The notes: a model not told the origin generated them from the letters alone. DNA of 64,000 nucleotides from a phage (PZ445454.1); one strand, 5' to 3'; positions 59,965 to 61,464 are shown, numbered from the stretch's first letter. A program made the numbers and translations.

Positions 59965-59982
59965 CCAATTTCAATAAAGTTG

Positions 59983-60011
59983 TTGACATTGAGATGTGAC
60001 TACTTTATAGT
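59983..60011 (+). promoter_or_regulatory. sigma70-like promoter internal to the tRNA array
   Basis: TTGACA-N17-TATAGT. Confidence 0.55.
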
Positions 60012-60304
60012 AACTGAAAATGATTCAGCATATGTATAATTCAAACACCAATACATGAGCGTTAGACGTAACACAATGTGGGGAAATTTGTTGTACATAT
60101 ACTGAATAGTTTTCGTTGCGTAGCGTCTATTTTGCAAATTTAAAATAAATGCAAACGACAATGTTTTTCTGGCAGTAGCTTGATAGGCTAAACACCAGTG
60201 AGGTCTTCCAATCCCTCATCAAAGAATTTGGCGTACTAGCCCACGGTATGATTAATAAGGTGGGCATCTTTAAGGGCTTTCTAAGAGAGTCTTTAAAGAT
60301 TAAT
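60012..60304 (+). ncRNA. candidate small stable RNA (non-tRNA insert downstream of an internal promoter)
   Basis: About 290 nt with no tRNA fold and no ORF of note, between tRNA-Ile and tRNA-Arg. Confidence 0.3.
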
Positions 60305-60378
60305 GCACCCTTAGTTCAATTGGATAGAGCAACGGTCTTCTAAATCGTTAGTTACAGGTTCGAATCCTGTAGGGTGTG
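60305..60378 (+). tRNA. tRNA-Arg (anticodon UCU)
   Basis: Acceptor GCACCCT/AGGGTGT, D-arm GTTC-AATTGGATA-GAGC, anticodon loop CTTCTAA, T-arm ACAGG-TTCGAAT-CCTGT. Confidence 0.7.
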
Positions 60379-60523
60379 CCAAATAGTTAGCAGATTGCTT
60401 AGACGACCTAAGCGGGTCTTCCTGTAGGGAGGTGGTCTGTATCTCATGTTTTCCAGAACATGTAAATAATCTGAGAAGGGGCTTTACAGTGTTGAGATAA
60501 TACGGTAAGCTTCGAATTATAGT

Positions 60524-60603
60524 ATGGGACGATGTTAAGACTCTAAGGCATGAGCAACGGCTTCCAACACCGTTTCAAAGGGGTTCAACTCCTCCGTCCC
60601 ATG
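60524..60603 (+). tRNA. tRNA, probably Trp (anticodon CCA); about 80 nt with an irregular D-region
   Basis: Perfect acceptor ATGGGAC/GTCCCAT, anticodon region AACGG-CTTCCAACA-CCGTT, T-loop GGTTCAACTCC. Confidence 0.45.
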
Positions 60604-60619
60604 CCAAAGTCTTATTAGG

Positions 60620-60707
60620 GGTAGGTAGCGGCTAATGGTAGCCAAACTGTCTTGAAAACAGTTGCCACTGTAGATATACGGTGAGGGTTCGACTCCTTTA
60701 CTTACCG
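60620..60707 (+). tRNA. tRNA-Ser (anticodon UGA), class II
   Basis: Acceptor GGTAGGT/ACTTACC, anticodon arm ACTGT-CTTGAAA-ACAGT, long variable arm, T-loop GGTTCGACTCC. Confidence 0.6.
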
Positions 60708-60861
60708 CCTAATAAGATTTAAAGCCAAGCTTCATTCGGATGTTGCTTTGGTATCCCGCGTGTATTGTCGTACACACTGATAAAACACCTAGTAGGTGTC
60801 ACGGAGAAGAGATAATATCAAGCTCTCCAAAGGTTCTAGTCACCGGATTAAAAAGACTATG

Positions 60862-60885
60862 CAAAGACCTTTTTAGGTCTTTTTA
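60862..60885 (+). terminator. hairpin plus T-run inside a non-tRNA insert of the array
   Basis: AAGACC-TTTTT-AGGTCTTTTT. Confidence 0.4.
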
Positions 60886-60963
60886 GAGGGCTTCTAAGGT
60901 TATTACAGCTTGTTGTGGAACCTTGTTGCTTAGGTTCTTAGAAGTTCTCTAAAAAGATTTAAT

Positions 60964-61038
60964 GGGAGATTGACGGTAATTGGTAAACCTACCATCCTTA
61001 GAAGTTGGTGTTTGAGGGTTCGAATCCCTTGTCTCCTA
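60964..61038 (+). tRNA. tRNA with UAG anticodon (Leu codon CUA) but apparently short variable arm
   Basis: Acceptor GGGAGAT/GTCTCCT, anticodon arm CCATC-CTTAGAA-GTTGG, T-arm GAGGG-TTCGAAT-CCCTT, discriminator A. Confidence 0.45.
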
Positions 61039-61048
61039 CCAAATTAAT

Positions 61049-61121
61049 GCAGGTGTAGCAAAATGGTTATGCGGCTGACTCTTAATCAGTAAGACGACGG
61101 GTTCAATTCCCTCCACCTGTA
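61049..61121 (+). tRNA. tRNA-Lys (anticodon CUU), tentative
   Basis: Acceptor GCAGGTG/CACCTGT, anticodon arm GCTGA-CTCTTAA-TCAGT, T-loop GGTTCAATTCC. Confidence 0.45.
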
Positions 61122-61129
61122 CCAAAAAT

Positions 61130-61202
61130 GGGGTCATAGTTTATATGGTTAAAATTCGAGTTTTGCAAACTTGGGAACTGAGTTCAACTCTCAGTGACTC
61201 CA
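61130..61202 (+). tRNA. tRNA-Ala (anticodon UGC)
   Basis: Acceptor GGGGTCA/TGACTCC, anticodon arm CGAGT-TTTGCAA-ACTTG, T-arm CTGAG-TTCAACT-CTCAG. Confidence 0.55.
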
Positions 61203-61211
61203 CCAATTAGT

Positions 61212-61283
61212 GCATCCATAGTTTAAACGGGAAAATTACAGTCTTCCAAACTGAGGTTGAGGGTTCGATTCCCTCTGGATGCT
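61212..61283 (+). tRNA. tRNA-Gly (anticodon UCC)
   Basis: Perfect acceptor GCATCCA/TGGATGC, anticodon loop CTTCCAA, T-arm GAGGG-TTCGATT-CCCTC. Confidence 0.6.
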
Positions 61284-61292
61284 CCAAACAAT

Positions 61293-61366
61293 GCTGCTTT
61301 CGTATAATTGGCTATTACACATCCCTTGTAAGGATGGAAATGCAGGTTCGAGTCCTGTGAGCAGCA
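61293..61366 (+). tRNA. tRNA-Thr (anticodon UGU)
   Basis: Acceptor GCTGCTT/GAGCAGC, anticodon arm CATCC-CTTGTAA-GGATG, T-loop GGTTCGAGTCC. Confidence 0.7.
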
Positions 61367-61464
61367 CCAATTCAGAGGTCAAGTGAAAGACCGCTGGTGT
61401 CAACTGAAGACCGTAACAAATTCCACGGAGTTGAGTTAGCGGCACAACTTCAGACCTCTTTCAC

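What the first reader, a model, noticed from the sequence alone, without database searches (positions are those of the whole stretch)
59968..61464. Non-tRNA inserts with their own promoter inside the tRNA array
The array contains several tRNA-free gaps: 59968-60304 with a TTGACA-N17-TATAGT promoter, 60380-60523, 60708-60963 with a hairpin/T-run terminator, and 61367-61464 with inverted repeats. Phage tRNA clusters can encode small stable RNAs of unknown function. Shorter spacers earlier in the array repeat the motifs ACAGAAGACC and GGTCTGG several times.
Basis: seen in the sequence. Interest (0 to 1): 0.5.

Follow-up and report, generated by a model that had tools for sequence, protein, structure and literature searches.

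The report
Phage tmRNA-like and Y-like small RNAs
The stretches between tRNA genes in this Felix O1-like phage are genes for conserved, structured small RNAs, including a promoter-driven copy of the coding part of bacterial tmRNA that lacks the tRNA-like part and that occurs, unannotated, in hundreds of unrelated phages.

Summary
The window is a Felixounavirus. The four tRNA-free gaps, the TTGACA-N17-TATAGT promoter, the hairpins and the repeated motifs are all present and conserved.

Gap 1 (59968-60304) encodes an RNA derived from tmRNA. It keeps the frame-setting AUA, the GCA resume codon, a 10-codon tag (ANDNVFLAVA) with its stop, helix 5 and two covarying pseudoknots. It has no tRNA-like domain. 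BLAST with gap 1 hit 615 phage records, most through this module. They span Ounavirinae, Kuttervirus, Schitoviridae, Chaseviridae, Jedunavirus, Swiduovirus, a Vibrio phage and lambdoid prophages. No inspected record annotates it, and I found no paper on it.

Its conserved 5' end, (U)AGUUUUCGU, is complementary to codons 3-6 of the host tmRNA tag and not to its own tag. I infer that it acts on host trans-translation; this step is not shown.

ACAGAAGACC and GGTCTGG are the two strands of the closing helix of four Y-RNA-like RNAs. One carries a YrlA-style tRNA-like module. They lie just downstream of a protein with a predicted Ro60 fold.

Gaps 2-4 are conserved structured RNAs of unknown function. 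A non-canonical tRNA-Trp lies at 60524-60606.

The parts
56997..58412 (+). Gene for a DUF2828 + vWA (DUF7788) protein with a predicted Ro60/TROVE fold, directly upstream of the tRNA/sRNA array. Context for the Y-like RNAs.
   Evidence: Pfam domains. AlphaFold2 model, pLDDT 89 and pTM 0.88. The top 12 Foldseek PDB hits are all Ro60/Rsr/TROVE structures (2i91, 1yvr, 2nvo, phage phiLo 9l5y), TM 0.48-0.68. The Bas63 protein gp130, said there to lie directly upstream of the Bas63 tRNA genes, is described as Ro60-like in PMC11482910.
58743..58822 (+). Y-like RNA 1: outer helix UGAC/GUCA, 5' bulge AGA opposite G, inner helix AGACCAA/UUGGUCU, then single-stranded GCAGCAA.
58910..58980 (+). Y-like RNA 2: UUAC/GUAA, AGACCGU/ACGGUCU, then UUACAGCAA.
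59365..59444 (+). Y-like RNA 3: GAGC/GCUC, AGACCAA/UUGGUCU, then AUUCAGCAA.
59452..59590 (+). Y-like RNA 4, with YrlA-type architecture. The same closing helix encloses a T-arm (GAAGGUUCGAUUCCUUC), an acceptor-like hairpin closed by a loop (ACUCGGC/GUCGAGU) and a D-arm (GUGUAAUGGUAGCAC).
   Evidence: The acceptor-like hairpin covaries: ACCCUUC/GAAGGGU in Mordin and ACACG/CGUGU in SUSP1. Weak partial Rfam tRNA hit at 59478-59528 (22 bits).
59590..59727 (+). A long perfect stem closing a structured interior of about 100 nt.
   Evidence: MFE z = -5.7. The stem covaries with Mordin and SUSP1.
59983..60011 (+). Sigma-70-type promoter, TTGACA-N17-TATAGT, for the tmRNA-like RNA.
   Evidence: 11 of 12 positions, the best match in the region. 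Conserved in relatives. Analogous promoters precede the module in four other lineages.
60013..60116 (+). 5' hairpin of about 100 nt. It is an insertion present in about a third of Felixounavirus records. Its 3' arm contains the conserved 5' motif.
   Evidence: Its absence in L011/L062-type relatives leaves TATAGTAACCTTAGTTTTCG. A homologous hairpin precedes the module in Chaseviridae phage SKA49.
60107..60116 (+). Conserved 5' motif UAGUUUUCGU, perfectly complementary to E. coli ssrA nucleotides 97-106 (tag codons 3-6).
   Evidence: It is the longest perfect complement to ssrA in almost every lineage tested. The predicted duplex with the host tag is -10.5 to -20 kcal/mol, against -4.3 to -9.1 with the RNA's own tag, in all 34 variants. 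The motif is kept in the Vibrio phage, Faunus and SKA49 versions.
60145..60183 (+). Frame-setting sequence AUAAAU, with U at -5 and A at -4 as in tmRNA U85/A86. Then the resume codon GCA, the 10-codon tag ANDNVFLAVA and the stop UGA.
   Evidence: Weak Rfam hits to tmRNA and tmRNA_permuted, aligned on exactly this stretch. The frame is 10 codons plus a stop in all 95 copies caught by the pattern scan and longer in the Vibrio phage version (13 codons); three different stop codons occur at the same position. Role of U85/A86: PMC2481249.
60169..60198 (+). Helix-5 equivalent (CUGG...CCAG, with an inner UAGC/GCUA helix), holding the stop codon.
   Evidence: Covariation CUGG/CCAG against CUGA/UCAG.
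60198..60231 (+). H-type pseudoknot, PK2-like: S1 UGAGG/CCUCA, S2 CCAA/UUGG.
   Evidence: S2 occurs as CCGA/UCGG, CCAA/UUGG and CCAG/CUGG. S1 is UAGGG/CCCUA in Pistou and CGUGG/CCACG in SKA49.
60232..60265 (+). H-type pseudoknot, PK3-like: S1 CGUAC/GUAUG, S2 GCCCAC/GUGGGC.
   Evidence: S1 occurs as CGCAC/GUGUG, CGCAU/AUGUG and CGCAG/CUGUG. S2 occurs as GCCC/GGGC, GCCCUGA/UCAGGGC, CGGGAG/CUCCCG and AUCC/GGAU.
60266..60300 (+). Terminal hairpin AUCUUUAAGGGCUUUC-UAA-GAGAGUCUUUAAAGAU, 4 nt before tRNA-Arg(UCU). Cleavage by RNase P at 60305 would presumably define the 3' end of the RNA.
   Evidence: Fold. Other Felixounaviruses have a different module here. The 3' end is an inference.
60382..60523 (+). 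Gap 2 RNA: P1 CAGAUUG/UAAUCUG enclosing GAC/GUC and ACCU/AGGU with a variable apical hairpin. Then CAUGUU-UUCCAG-AACAUG, then GGGGCUU...AAGCUUC.
   Evidence: Fold. Alignment A5 shows near-invariance across three genera, a 23-nt hairpin insertion at the apex in Mordin and SUSP1, and G-U to A-U changes. Found only in Ounavirinae.
60524..60606 (+). Non-canonical tRNA-Trp(CCA) with an enlarged D region. The array has no other tRNA-Trp.
   Evidence: Missed. Cloverleaf-like fold. Conserved in finno, Mordin, mistaenkt and Yersinia phage P778; SUSP1 has a more canonical Trp here.
60710..60963 (+). Gap 3 RNA: a variable first hairpin; conserved hairpins at 60760-60775, 60786-60798 and 60803-60828; a terminator-like hairpin at 60863-60884; and a long hairpin at 60880-60955 abutting tRNA-Leu.
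   Evidence: MFE z = -3.6. Alignment A6 shows an almost invariant central 130 nt and compensatory changes in the long hairpin. The 48-codon ORF is not conserved.
61373..61459 (+). Gap 4 RNA: closing helix AGAGGUC/GACCUCU, two GACCG motifs, and an internal CUGAAGACCGUAAC that resembles the 5' motif of the Y-like RNAs.
   Evidence: Fold z = -3.2. 95% mean identity across Felixounavirus, Mooglevirus and Suspvirus. Absent in Pistou and P778.

Best explanation
The tRNA-free gaps are genes for small structured non-coding RNAs interleaved with tRNA genes. Transcription of the array, plus an internal promoter, would produce them, and the enzymes that process tRNAs would release them.

SHOWN. (1) Gap 1 encodes a homologue of the central part of tmRNA. 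It has a remnant of PK1, the frame-setting AUA, the GCA resume codon, a 10-codon tag, a stop inside helix 5, and two pseudoknots. It has no acceptor stem and no T-arm. It belongs to a family found in many unrelated phages of Enterobacterales, and of Vibrio. (2) The 5' end of this RNA is complementary to codons 3-6 of the host tmRNA tag (GACGAAAACUAC). Its own tag differs from the host tag in exactly those codons. (3) The ACAGAAGACC...GGTCTGG elements are four paralogous RNAs closed by a covarying bulged helix followed by an invariant CAGCAA. One of them carries a YrlA-like tRNA mimic. They lie next to a gene whose protein has a predicted Ro60 fold, and they are absent from a relative that lacks that gene.

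INFERRED. The tmRNA-like RNA acts on host trans-translation. It would anneal through its 5' end to the tag template of host tmRNA. Because it resembles that template, it would also compete for whatever reads it (SmpB, S1, the ribosome). The result would be to block or redirect the tagging of proteins made on broken mRNAs during infection. The Y-like RNAs would be the RNA partners of the Ro60-like protein, which is reported to counter the Ppl defence system in Bas63. Gaps 2-4 are further conserved structured RNAs whose partners are unknown.
For: tmRNA-like identity. Weak hits to tmRNA-family Rfam models fall on the same stretch in five lineages. The sequence AUAAAUGCAAACGA is the defining anchor of the 95 copies recovered by the pattern scans, all with a tag frame of constant length; diverged members keep it as AUAAAUGCAAAUGA. 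Stops UAA, UGA and UAG occupy one position. Four of the five codon differences between the Pistou and lambdoid versions are synonymous. On 77 distinct sequences, 99.7% of cells are paired, 5 pairs show compensatory change, 0 of 500 shuffles reach the observed score, and the slid controls show none.

No tRNA-like domain. ARAGORN calls no credible tmRNA in 46 contexts; its one call, in swi2, uses the T-arm of a neighbouring tRNA-Met and gives an unrelated tag. Promoters place the 5' end at the AGUUUUCG motif. The units in SP076 and Vibrio phage MAG7 end in their own terminators.

Distribution. BLAST with gap 1 hit 615 phage records, 89 IMG/VR contigs carry the module, and 137 of 5426 E. coli genomes carry it between Q and the holin. 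The species-representative bacterial genomes gave one true hit, in a prophage.

5' complementarity..

Y-like RNAs. 97.7% of cells are paired, 8 of 11 pairs are compensatory, and 0 of 500 shuffles reach the observed score. They are present in finno, Mordin, SUSP1, mistaenkt and P778, the last with different stem sequences, and absent in Pistou, which lacks the protein. Ro60 fold.
Against: No RNA data were available, so transcription, processing and stability are inferred.

A tag template without a tRNA-like domain has no known way of being read.

The pN/pS test does not separate the tag frame (0.62) from the overlapping AUG frame (0.70).

The 10-nt complementarity to ssrA is only moderately unlikely by chance in any single lineage (7-17 of 300 shuffles), and the lineages are not independent.

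The Salmonella tag is ANDETYALAA, which would give one internal mismatch. Salmonella phages nevertheless keep the E. coli-type motif, so the motif does not visibly track the host.

In the window itself the motif is sequestered in the inserted 5' hairpin.

An equivalent of PK1 could not be established.

The Y-like RNAs lack the GNCGAA motif of YrlA and do not score with the Rfam YrlA model.
Confidence: 0.6

Rival explanations
1. Split tmRNA. The RNA is the coding piece of a two-part rescue system. A tRNA-like domain supplied in trans, either host Ala-tmRNA/SmpB held by the 5' duplex or a phage tRNA-like RNA, brings it to stalled ribosomes. Those ribosomes then add the phage tag (AANDNVFLAVA) in place of the host degradation tag.
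For: The determinants for resuming translation are kept: U at -5, A at -4, GCA. The frame is 10 codons in all 95 pattern-scan copies (13 in the Vibrio phage version), the stop codon is preserved in three forms, and codon changes are mostly synonymous. Helix 5 and the pseudoknots are kept. The 5' end could tether the RNA to host tmRNA and would mask the host template 6 nt after its resume codon. In prophage and Kuttervirus arrays, modules carrying T-arms often lie beside it.
Against: No two-piece tmRNA is known in which a complete tRNA-like domain and the coding piece are held together only by a 10-bp duplex inside the tag. The T-arm modules are optional and are absent from the simplest units. 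The coding-frame test is not decisive.
Confidence: 0.2
2. Protein decoy. The RNA only mimics the part of tmRNA that host proteins bind (S1, the secondary SmpB sites, RNase R) and titrates them. The tag frame and the 5' complementarity are inherited features with no present function.
For: The retained region is the one to which S1 and SmpB binding has been mapped on tmRNA; that mapping comes from my own knowledge. PMC2481249 names S1 or SmpB as the probable ligand of A86. A strong promoter would support high copy number. The mycobacteriophage DS6A 'TLD-only' gene was likewise proposed to titrate SmpB (PMC4131195).
Against: A decoy does not explain why the 5' motif stays conserved in lineages where the pseudoknots have been replaced, such as Vibrio phage MAG7. 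It also does not explain why a stop codon is kept in three forms.
Confidence: 0.12
3. The gaps are spacers without a function of their own: decayed tRNA genes, scars of homing-endonuclease insertion, or processing hairpins for the neighbouring tRNAs. The tmRNA-like stretch is a captured fragment of a host gene.
For: Relatives carry HNH endonuclease genes in these same gaps. Long hairpins abut the 5' ends of several tRNAs. Parts of the gaps are gained and lost between relatives.
Against: Gap 4 is 95% identical across three genera. Compensatory changes maintain the helices. The tmRNA-like module is kept in unrelated phage families with its own promoter, and its similarity to E. coli ssrA is limited to about 40 nt. 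The species-representative bacterial genomes gave only one true hit, inside a prophage.
Confidence: 0.06
4. The gaps encode small proteins.
For: The list of open frames includes 31-53 codon frames in the gaps, for example 60740-60886. An AUG overlaps the resume codon and opens a 9-codon frame, MQTTMFFWQ in the window (sequence).
Against: The 48-codon frame in gap 3 loses its start and is broken by indels in Mordin and mistaenkt. The conserved positions follow helices, not codons. No Shine-Dalgarno sequence precedes the AUG.
Confidence: 0.02

Closest known systems
tmRNA (SsrA; Rfam RF00023 and the permuted and alpha/beta families)
   Same: The A-rich leader with U at -5 and A at -4; the GCA resume codon; a 10-codon tag beginning AND and ending in a hydrophobic, Ala-rich tail; a stop codon inside helix 5; H-type pseudoknots following the tag.
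   Different: There is no acceptor stem, D-loop analogue, T-arm or CCA, so the RNA cannot be charged with alanine. It has only two pseudoknots and no clear PK1. It scores below every Rfam gathering threshold. The tags end in LAVA, LMAA or VAA instead of ALAA. Its 5' end is antisense to the host tag. It is encoded by phages.
Phage-encoded tmRNA genes (mycobacteriophage Bxz1 group, Bacillus phage G) and the 'TLD-only' gene of mycobacteriophage DS6A (PMC4131195)
   Same: They are phage-borne derivatives of ssrA. DS6A shows that a phage can keep only one half of tmRNA, which was proposed to interfere with the host system.
   Different: Those are complete tmRNAs or the tRNA-like half. This RNA is the complementary, mRNA-like half. 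It occurs in phages of Enterobacterales and Vibrio rather than in actinophages.
Bacterial Y RNAs of the YrlA type with Ro60/Rsr (PMC4201824)
   Same: They are encoded on the same strand just downstream of a gene for a Ro60-fold protein. The 5' and 3' ends form a bulged closing helix. One member has a module with a T-arm, a D-arm and a closed acceptor-like hairpin in which the closing helix takes the place of the anticodon stem. Several paralogues sit at one locus.
   Different: The protein belongs to DUF2828, not to the Pfam TROVE family, and shows no sequence hit to Ro60. The GNCGAA motif is replaced by an A-N-A bulge plus an invariant CAGCAA. There is no hit to the Rfam YrlA model. Three of the four RNAs lack a tRNA-like module. 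The RNAs are embedded in a tRNA array.
Small stable RNAs in the phage T4 tRNA cluster (species 1 and 2, rnaC and rnaD); from my own knowledge, not tested here
   Same: They are non-tRNA stable RNAs co-transcribed and co-processed with phage tRNAs, with function unknown.
   Different: No sequence relationship was examined. The RNAs here have identifiable relatives (tmRNA, Y RNA).
Anti-sRNAs encoded downstream of the PR' promoter in lambdoid prophages (AgvB, AsxR; PMC4104026)
   Same: In lambdoid prophages the tmRNA-like module lies in the same late-leader or moron region. The proposed action is the same in kind: a phage RNA that pairs with or mimics a host regulatory RNA.
   Different: The proposed target is tmRNA, not an Hfq-dependent sRNA. 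That paper does not mention tmRNA.

Membership tests
tmRNA | tRNA-like domain: acceptor stem with G3:U70, T-arm, 3' CCA | tested here: not met
   ARAGORN finds no tmRNA in the window and no credible one in 46 representative 3-kb contexts; its single call, in swi2, borrows the T-arm of tRNA-Met and yields an unrelated tag. Promoters place the 5' end about 50-60 nt before the resume codon. The terminator-bounded units lack a T-loop.
tmRNA | Resume codon preceded by the conserved U85/A86 frame determinants | tested here: met
   AUAAAU|GCA is the fixed anchor of the pattern scans and recurs unchanged in the diverged Pistou, SKA49, Faunus and MAG7 versions found by BLAST. It places U at -5 and A at -4. 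Their role is described in PMC2481249.
tmRNA | Short tag reading frame ending in a stop codon within helix 5 | tested here: met
   10 codons in all 95 copies caught by the pattern scan and 13 in Vibrio phage MAG7. Stops are UAA, UGA or UAG at one position. Helix 5 covaries. Whether the frame is translated was not testable.
tmRNA | Pseudoknots around the tag (PK1 before it, PK2-PK4 after it) | tested here: inconclusive
   Two H-type pseudoknots after the tag are supported by covariation. PK1 was not established. There is no PK4, only a hairpin.
tmRNA | Score at or above the Rfam gathering threshold | tested here: not met
   RF00023 scores 15.2 bits against a threshold of 47. tmRNA_permuted scores 20.8-25.7 against 47.
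tmRNA | Charging with alanine, binding of SmpB and EF-Tu, tagging activity | not testable with these tools
   Requires biochemistry.
Two-piece (permuted) tmRNA | An acceptor piece (T-arm, 3' acceptor strand, CCA) encoded upstream of a coding piece that begins with the 5' acceptor strand | tested here: not met
   Only weak hits to the tmRNA_permuted model, confined to the tag region. The transcript begins at AGUUUUCG, not at an acceptor strand. ARAGORN, which detects permuted genes, finds none.
Y RNA / YrlA | Encoded within about 4 kb of a Ro60 orthologue, on the same strand | tested here: met
   The RNAs lie 330-1180 nt downstream of 56997-58412. The Ro60 fold rests on a predicted model and Foldseek. 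By sequence the protein is DUF2828 with no TROVE hit.
Y RNA / YrlA | 5' and 3' ends form a conserved bulged helix, the site where Ro60 binds | tested here: met
   The helix is supported by 8 of 11 compensatory pairs, with an invariant A-N-A bulge. Whether it binds the protein was not tested.
Y RNA / YrlA | The GNCGAAN0-1G motif near the 5' end (PMC4201824) | tested here: not met
   The motif is absent from all four RNAs. An invariant CAGCAA follows the 5' strand instead.
Y RNA / YrlA | tRNA-like module with a T-arm, a D-arm and a closed acceptor-like stem | tested here: met
   Present in RNA 4 only (59490-59570). The acceptor-like hairpin covaries in three genera. P778 has an equivalent. Partial Rfam tRNA hit of 22 bits.
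Y RNA / YrlA | Score at or above the Rfam YrlA gathering threshold | tested here: not met
   No YrlA hit on these RNAs at E up to 10. The only YrlA hit (17 bits) lies on tRNA-His/Phe.
Intrinsic terminator (gap 3) | G+C-rich hairpin followed directly by a run of U | tested here: inconclusive
   AAAGACC-UUUUU-AGGUCUUUUU at 60863-84 is conserved, but the stem has only 3 G-C pairs and uses part of the U-run. The scan did not call it.

The most novel reading that the evidence does not exclude
Phages of enterobacteria and vibrios carry a detachable tag cassette that takes over the host's ribosome-rescue system. The RNA would anneal through its 5' end to the tag template of host Ala-tmRNA/SmpB, mask that template, and present its own resume codon and reading frame. 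Proteins released from stalled ribosomes during infection would then receive a phage-specified C-terminal tag (AANDNVFLAVA and variants) instead of the ClpXP/SspB degradation tag.
Probability: 0.2. Interest if true: 0.95.

Novelty: new variant of a known kind. Interest (0 to 1): 0.8.

Why it matters
tmRNA has been understood as one molecule, or two base-paired pieces, whose tRNA-like and mRNA-like halves work together. A conserved, independently transcribed mRNA-like half, spread across at least eight phage lineages and over a hundred E. coli prophages, is unexpected. If the inference holds, phages manipulate ribosome rescue and protein tagging in a way not yet described.

The family comes with directly testable predictions: a 5' motif, a target site on the host RNA, and a tag sequence that mass spectrometry could detect.

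The same locus also supplies concrete RNA candidates for the Ro60-like protein that was reported to counter the Ppl defence system in Bas63. That report could only guess that 'some tRNA genes are possibly Y RNAs'.

More generally, phage tRNA arrays appear to be mixed arrays of tRNAs and other host-directed small RNAs, which current annotation leaves blank.

Tried and rejected
1. Rfam at gathering thresholds finds only tRNAs. At E up to 10, the non-tRNA hits other than the tmRNA-family ones were microRNA or plastid models matching hairpins or the reverse strand of tRNAs. I treated these as noise.

2. ARAGORN for tmRNA, including permuted genes, gave nothing in the window. In 46 contexts it gave one spurious call that uses the T-arm of tRNA-Met.

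3. pN/pS to decide whether the tag frame is coding: 0.62 against 0.70 for the overlapping AUG frame. Not decisive.

4. My first regular expression for the helix tables was wrong; I redid it. The register of PK3 S1 is off by one, and one search gives the correct count.

5. RNAduplex on the full-length RNAs gave meaningless long interactions, and runs with shuffles timed out. I replaced them with a longest-perfect-complement test and with duplexes between the short 5' motif and the tag.

6. Looking for a PK1 equivalent or a helix-2 partner for the 5' motif: RNAalifold gives only a 4-bp stem between UUUGCG and UGCAAA. Not established.

7. The idea that the flanking stems in lambdoid arrays (GGUAAGAGCA/UGCUCUUUCC) re-pair to form an acceptor stem and helix 2 around the module: I dropped it, because the window, Pistou, swi2 and MAG7 lack those flanks.

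8. Testing whether the 5' motif tracks the host: the hosts found (Escherichia, Klebsiella, Erwinia, Yersinia, Vibrio) appear to share the same tag codons. The ssrA copies recovered from IMG/VR were almost all of the E. coli type, and the Salmonella nucleotide sequence could not be retrieved.

9. A PDB search by sequence with the upstream protein gave no hit. The fold search was needed.

10. The genome-contig scan gave five chance matches inside Bacteroidota coding regions.

11. One literature search was badly framed and returned nothing useful.

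
Full report
WHAT THE WINDOW IS. The region matches Felixounavirus genomes (Ounavirinae, Felix O1-like). The best hit is Escherichia phage finno at 97.4% identity over 5.3 kb. ARAGORN finds 25 tRNA genes on the + strand between 58577 and 63556, and Rfam confirms them. In the five related records whose annotation I opened, the stretches between the tRNAs carry no gene or only short 'hypothetical protein' calls.

THE OBSERVATION. The promoter TTGACA-N17-TATAGT (59983-60011) matches 11 of 12 positions and is the best sigma-70 match in the region. CAGAAGACC occurs four times at 58746-59463, against 0.46 expected in the whole window. Each copy has a GGTCTGG 60-130 nt downstream. 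The gap at 60380-60523 ends at a tRNA that both ARAGORN and Rfam miss: a non-canonical tRNA-Trp(CCA) at 60524-60606 with an enlarged D region. It is conserved as far as Yersinia phage P778.

GAP 1 IS A tmRNA DERIVATIVE WITHOUT THE tRNA-LIKE HALF. The stretch at 60143-60183 reads UAAAUGCAAACGACAAUGUUUUUCUGGCAGUAGCUUGA. This is an A-rich leader, a GCA codon and a 10-codon frame, ANDNVFLAVA-stop. The E. coli tag is ANDENYALAA.
- Rfam gives weak, sub-threshold hits to tmRNA and tmRNA_permuted aligned on exactly this stretch. The homologous places in four unrelated phages give the same kind of hit.
- BLAST with gap 1 found 615 phage records. Outside Felixounavirus only the segment 60142-60266 matches: in Kuttervirus (Vi01), Schitoviridae (FSL SP-076), Jedunavirus, Swiduovirus, Sashavirus and others. 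In the listed hits it falls on unannotated DNA or on an unnamed 'hypothetical protein' call.
- A pattern scan of IMG/VR gave 89 more loci.
- Later searches added Chaseviridae of Escherichia, Yersinia, Erwinia and Pantoea, and a Vibrio phage.
- 137 of 5426 complete E. coli genomes carry the module. In O26:H11 strain 11368 it lies in the 1-kb unannotated stretch between the Q antiterminator gene and the holin gene, and three other lambdoid contigs show the same placement after a terminator and before the holin.
- In one genome per bacterial species, the exact pattern found a single true copy, in a Pseudocitrobacter prophage. The other five matches were chance hits inside Bacteroidota genes.
The family therefore belongs to phages.

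ANATOMY AND COVARIATION. I aligned 77 distinct versions.
- AUAAAUGCAAACGA is identical in all 77, as it must be, since the pattern scan required it; versions found by BLAST instead (Pistou, SKA49, Faunus, MAG7) keep AUAAAUGCAAAYGA. It places U at -5 and A at -4, the equivalents of tmRNA U85 and A86, the main frame-setting nucleotides (PMC2481249).
- The frame is 10 codons in all 95 copies caught by the pattern scan, and 13 in the Vibrio phage. The tags follow the pattern AN[DE]xx[FYV]L[AM][VAS]A.
- The stop codon is UAA (60), UGA (16) or UAG (1), always at the same position.
- The Erwinia phage Pistou version differs from the lambdoid version at five codons, and four of those changes are synonymous.
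- Helix 5 and two H-type pseudoknots follow the tag. Their variants are: CUGG/CCAG or CUGA/UCAG; CCGA/UCGG, CCAA/UUGG or CCAG/CUGG; CGCAC/GUGUG, CGUAC/GUAUG, CGCAU/AUGUG or CGCAG/CUGUG; GCCC/GGGC, GCCCAC/GUGGGC, GCCCUGA/UCAGGGC, CGGGAG/CUCCCG or AUCC/GGAU.
- The formal count gives 99.7% of cells paired, five pairs with changes on both sides, 87 such cells, 0 of 500 shuffles reaching the observed score, and no such changes in the slid controls.
- PK2 stem 1, invariant in that set, is UAGGG/CCCUA in Pistou and CGUGG/CCACG in SKA49.
- Similarity to E. coli ssrA is confined to the 3' half of PK1 through the tag.

NO tRNA-LIKE DOMAIN. ARAGORN finds no credible tmRNA in 46 representative contexts; its single call, in swi2, reuses the T-arm of tRNA-Met and gives an unrelated tag. 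In Felixounaviruses without the hairpin, and in Pistou, swi2, Kp15-38 and L053, a sigma-70-type promoter sits so that transcription would start at or a few nucleotides before (GAU)AGUUUUCG, about 50-60 nt before the resume codon. The FSL SP-076 and Vibrio phage MAG7 units end in their own rho-independent terminators and contain no T-loop. In the window the unit runs from the promoter to tRNA-Arg(UCU) at 60305, so RNase P would cut its 3' end (an inference). The defining feature of tmRNA is therefore absent. I call this RNA a tmRNA derivative, not a tmRNA. In the literature available to me, the known phage tmRNAs are in mycobacteriophages and Bacillus phage G, plus the 'TLD-only' gene of DS6A (PMC4131195). 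I found nothing describing the mRNA-like half on its own.

A 5' MOTIF AIMED AT THE HOST TAG. The most conserved part outside the resume region is the 5' end, (U)AGUUUUCG(U).
- It is the longest perfect complement to E. coli ssrA in 7 of the 8 lineages tested; in Vi01 another 9-mer is slightly longer. The match always falls at nucleotides 96-108, which are tag codons 3-6 (GACGAAAACUACG).
- The match is 10 nt in most lineages (7-17 of 300 shuffles do as well) and 12 nt in Pistou (1 of 300).
- Different lineages extend the match in different directions: AGUUUUCGUC in lambdoids, UAGUUUUCGU in Felixounavirus and swi2, CGUAGUUUUCGU in Pistou, GUAGUUUUC in SKA49 and the Vibrio phage.
- The phage tags differ from the host tag in exactly these codons. 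In all 34 combinations of motif and tag, the predicted duplex with the host tag (-10.5 to -20 kcal/mol) is stronger than with the RNA's own tag (-4.3 to -9.1).
Two caveats apply. The lineages are not independent. The Salmonella tag, ANDETYALAA, would give one mismatch, yet Salmonella phages keep the same motif. In the window itself, a hairpin of about 95 nt (60013-60116) lies between the -10 box and the motif, and its 5' arm pairs with the motif. About a third of Felixounavirus records have this insertion, and a homologous hairpin precedes the module in Chaseviridae.

HOW IT PROBABLY WORKS. What is shown is a promoter-linked, structurally constrained copy of the tag-template half of tmRNA, with a 5' end complementary to the host tag template. 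My inference is that it interferes with or redirects host trans-translation, by annealing to host tmRNA and competing for whatever reads the template. There are three versions of this idea.
- Antisense masking combined with mimicry. This is my preferred reading.
- Template hijacking, in which host Ala-tmRNA/SmpB delivers the phage frame to the ribosome. This version would explain why the resume determinants, the frame, the stop and helix 5 are all kept.
- A pure protein decoy.
The pN/pS test could not settle whether the frame is translated.

THE REPEATED MOTIFS ARE Y-RNA-LIKE RNAs. The four elements (58743-58822, 58910-58980, 59365-59444, 59452-59590) share one design: a 4-bp outer helix, a 5' A-N-A bulge opposite one purine, a 6-8-bp inner helix, and then a single-stranded (U/A)CAGCAA.
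- In 16 elements from five phages, 97.7% of cells are paired and 8 of 11 pairs show compensatory change. The bulge and CAGCAA are invariant.
- Yersinia phage P778, whose protein is 54% identical, has the same design with different stems: GGACUGU/ACAGUCC, GGAUUC/GAAUCC and GGACUC/GAGUCC.
- The fourth element encloses a T-arm, a loop-closed acceptor-like hairpin that covaries in three genera, and a D-arm. This is the YrlA layout, with the closing helix in place of the anticodon stem.
- The gene directly upstream (56997-58412; DUF2828 plus vWA) gives a confident model (pLDDT 89), and its 12 best PDB matches are all Ro60, Rsr or TROVE structures.
- Erwinia phage Pistou lacks this gene and lacks the elements.
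- A preprint found that the Bas63 protein gp130, which it places directly upstream of the Bas63 tRNA genes, is Ro60-like and counters the Ppl defence system. It could only suggest that some annotated tRNAs might be Y RNAs (PMC11482910).
- These RNAs do not score with the Rfam YrlA model and lack the GNCGAA motif of YrlA. They work like Y RNAs but are not members of that family by sequence.

GAPS 2-4. BLAST finds them almost only in Ounavirinae.
- Gap 2 (60382-60523) is nearly invariant across Felixounavirus, Mooglevirus and Suspvirus. Its helices are kept by G-U to A-U changes, and Mordin and SUSP1 have a 23-nt hairpin inserted at its apex.
- Gap 3 (60710-60963) has an almost invariant central 130 nt, a weak terminator-like hairpin, and a long hairpin next to tRNA-Leu with compensatory changes. 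Its 48-codon ORF is not conserved.
- Gap 4 (61373-61459) is 95% identical across three genera. It contains CUGAAGACCGUAAC, which resembles the 5' motif of the Y-like RNAs. It is absent from Pistou and from P778.
Their functions are unknown.

VERDICT. The tmRNA-like family and its 5' complementarity to the host tag appear not to have been described, and they are directly testable.

Noticed in passing
60524-60606: A non-canonical tRNA-Trp(CCA), with a 7-bp acceptor stem, a T-arm, the anticodon loop UUCCAAC and an enlarged D region of about 26 nt. ARAGORN and Rfam both miss it. It is the only tRNA-Trp candidate in the array and is conserved as far as Yersinia phage P778.
   Followed up: partly
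59590-59727: A perfect stem of 17-22 bp closes a three-way structure of about 100 nt (z = -5.7). The stem covaries with Mordin and SUSP1 while the interior diverges. This is another non-tRNA RNA, lying just before tRNA-Lys.
   Followed up: partly
60013-60116: A hairpin of about 95 nt is inserted between the -10 box and the tmRNA-like module. About two thirds of Felixounavirus records lack it, yet a homologous hairpin precedes the module in Chaseviridae (SKA49, L108:690-770). In the window it sequesters the conserved 5' motif.
   Followed up: partly
L013, L051, L058, L021 (IMG/VR prophage contigs); L099:2143-3214 (E. coli O26 11368): In lambdoid prophages the module is one unit in an unannotated stretch of about 1 kb between Q/tR' and the holin gene. 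The stretch consists of modules bracketed by GGUAAGAGCA...UGCUCUUUCC stems, some containing T-arm-like hairpins (GGUAGAGGGUUCGAAUCCCUAC). Jedunavirus and Swiduovirus share these modules.
   Followed up: partly
59576-59588 compared with 60330-60342: The 3' strand of the Y-like closing helix (AACGGUCUGGUAA) matches 11 of 13 positions of the anticodon arm of the phage tRNA-Arg(UCU) (AACGGUCUUCUAA). This may mean that the YrlA-like RNA arose from a tRNA permuted at the anticodon loop.
   Followed up: no
L097:4538-4942, L098:1828-2256 and 4060-4512; Felix O1 (hit H100): Related phages carry HNH homing-endonuclease genes inserted in the same inter-tRNA gaps. The gaps are hot spots for mobile genes.
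   Followed up: no
60266-60304, 60880-60963, 59711-59733, 62445-62472: Long hairpins followed by GAUU(U)AAU or UUAAAU lie immediately 5' of several tRNA genes. They may be processing signals.
   Followed up: no
L095:3325-3450, L097:4152-4280, L098:3349-3475: Between tRNA-Arg and gap 2, Mordin, SUSP1 and mistaenkt have a tRNA-like gene (acceptor GGUCAAG/CUUGACU, T-arm GUAGGUUCGACUCCUAC) with an insert of about 70 nt. The window lacks it.
   Followed up: no
63384-63476: ARAGORN calls this long-variable-arm tRNA 'Arg (tct)'. The homologous genes in finno, Mordin and mistaenkt are annotated tRNA-Ser.
   Followed up: no
58431-58459 and 58521-58550: Two further strong promoter-like sites, TTGACA-17-TAGTAT and TTGACA-18-TAAAGT with a TG extension, lie between the Ro60-like gene and the first tRNA. 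The first sits inside a 12-bp hairpin.
   Followed up: no
L002:1830-1930 and L064 (Kuttervirus): About 330 nt downstream of the module, Kuttervirus phages have a tRNA-like element (acceptor GCCGUU/AACGGC next to a T-arm UUGGGUUCGACUCCCUAA) with an insert of about 90 nt. ARAGORN does not call it.
   Followed up: no
L005:1-1091 (Salmonella phage FSL SP-076): Six tRNAs are annotated in this stretch of the record. Neither ARAGORN nor Rfam (E up to 1) finds any tRNA there.
   Followed up: no
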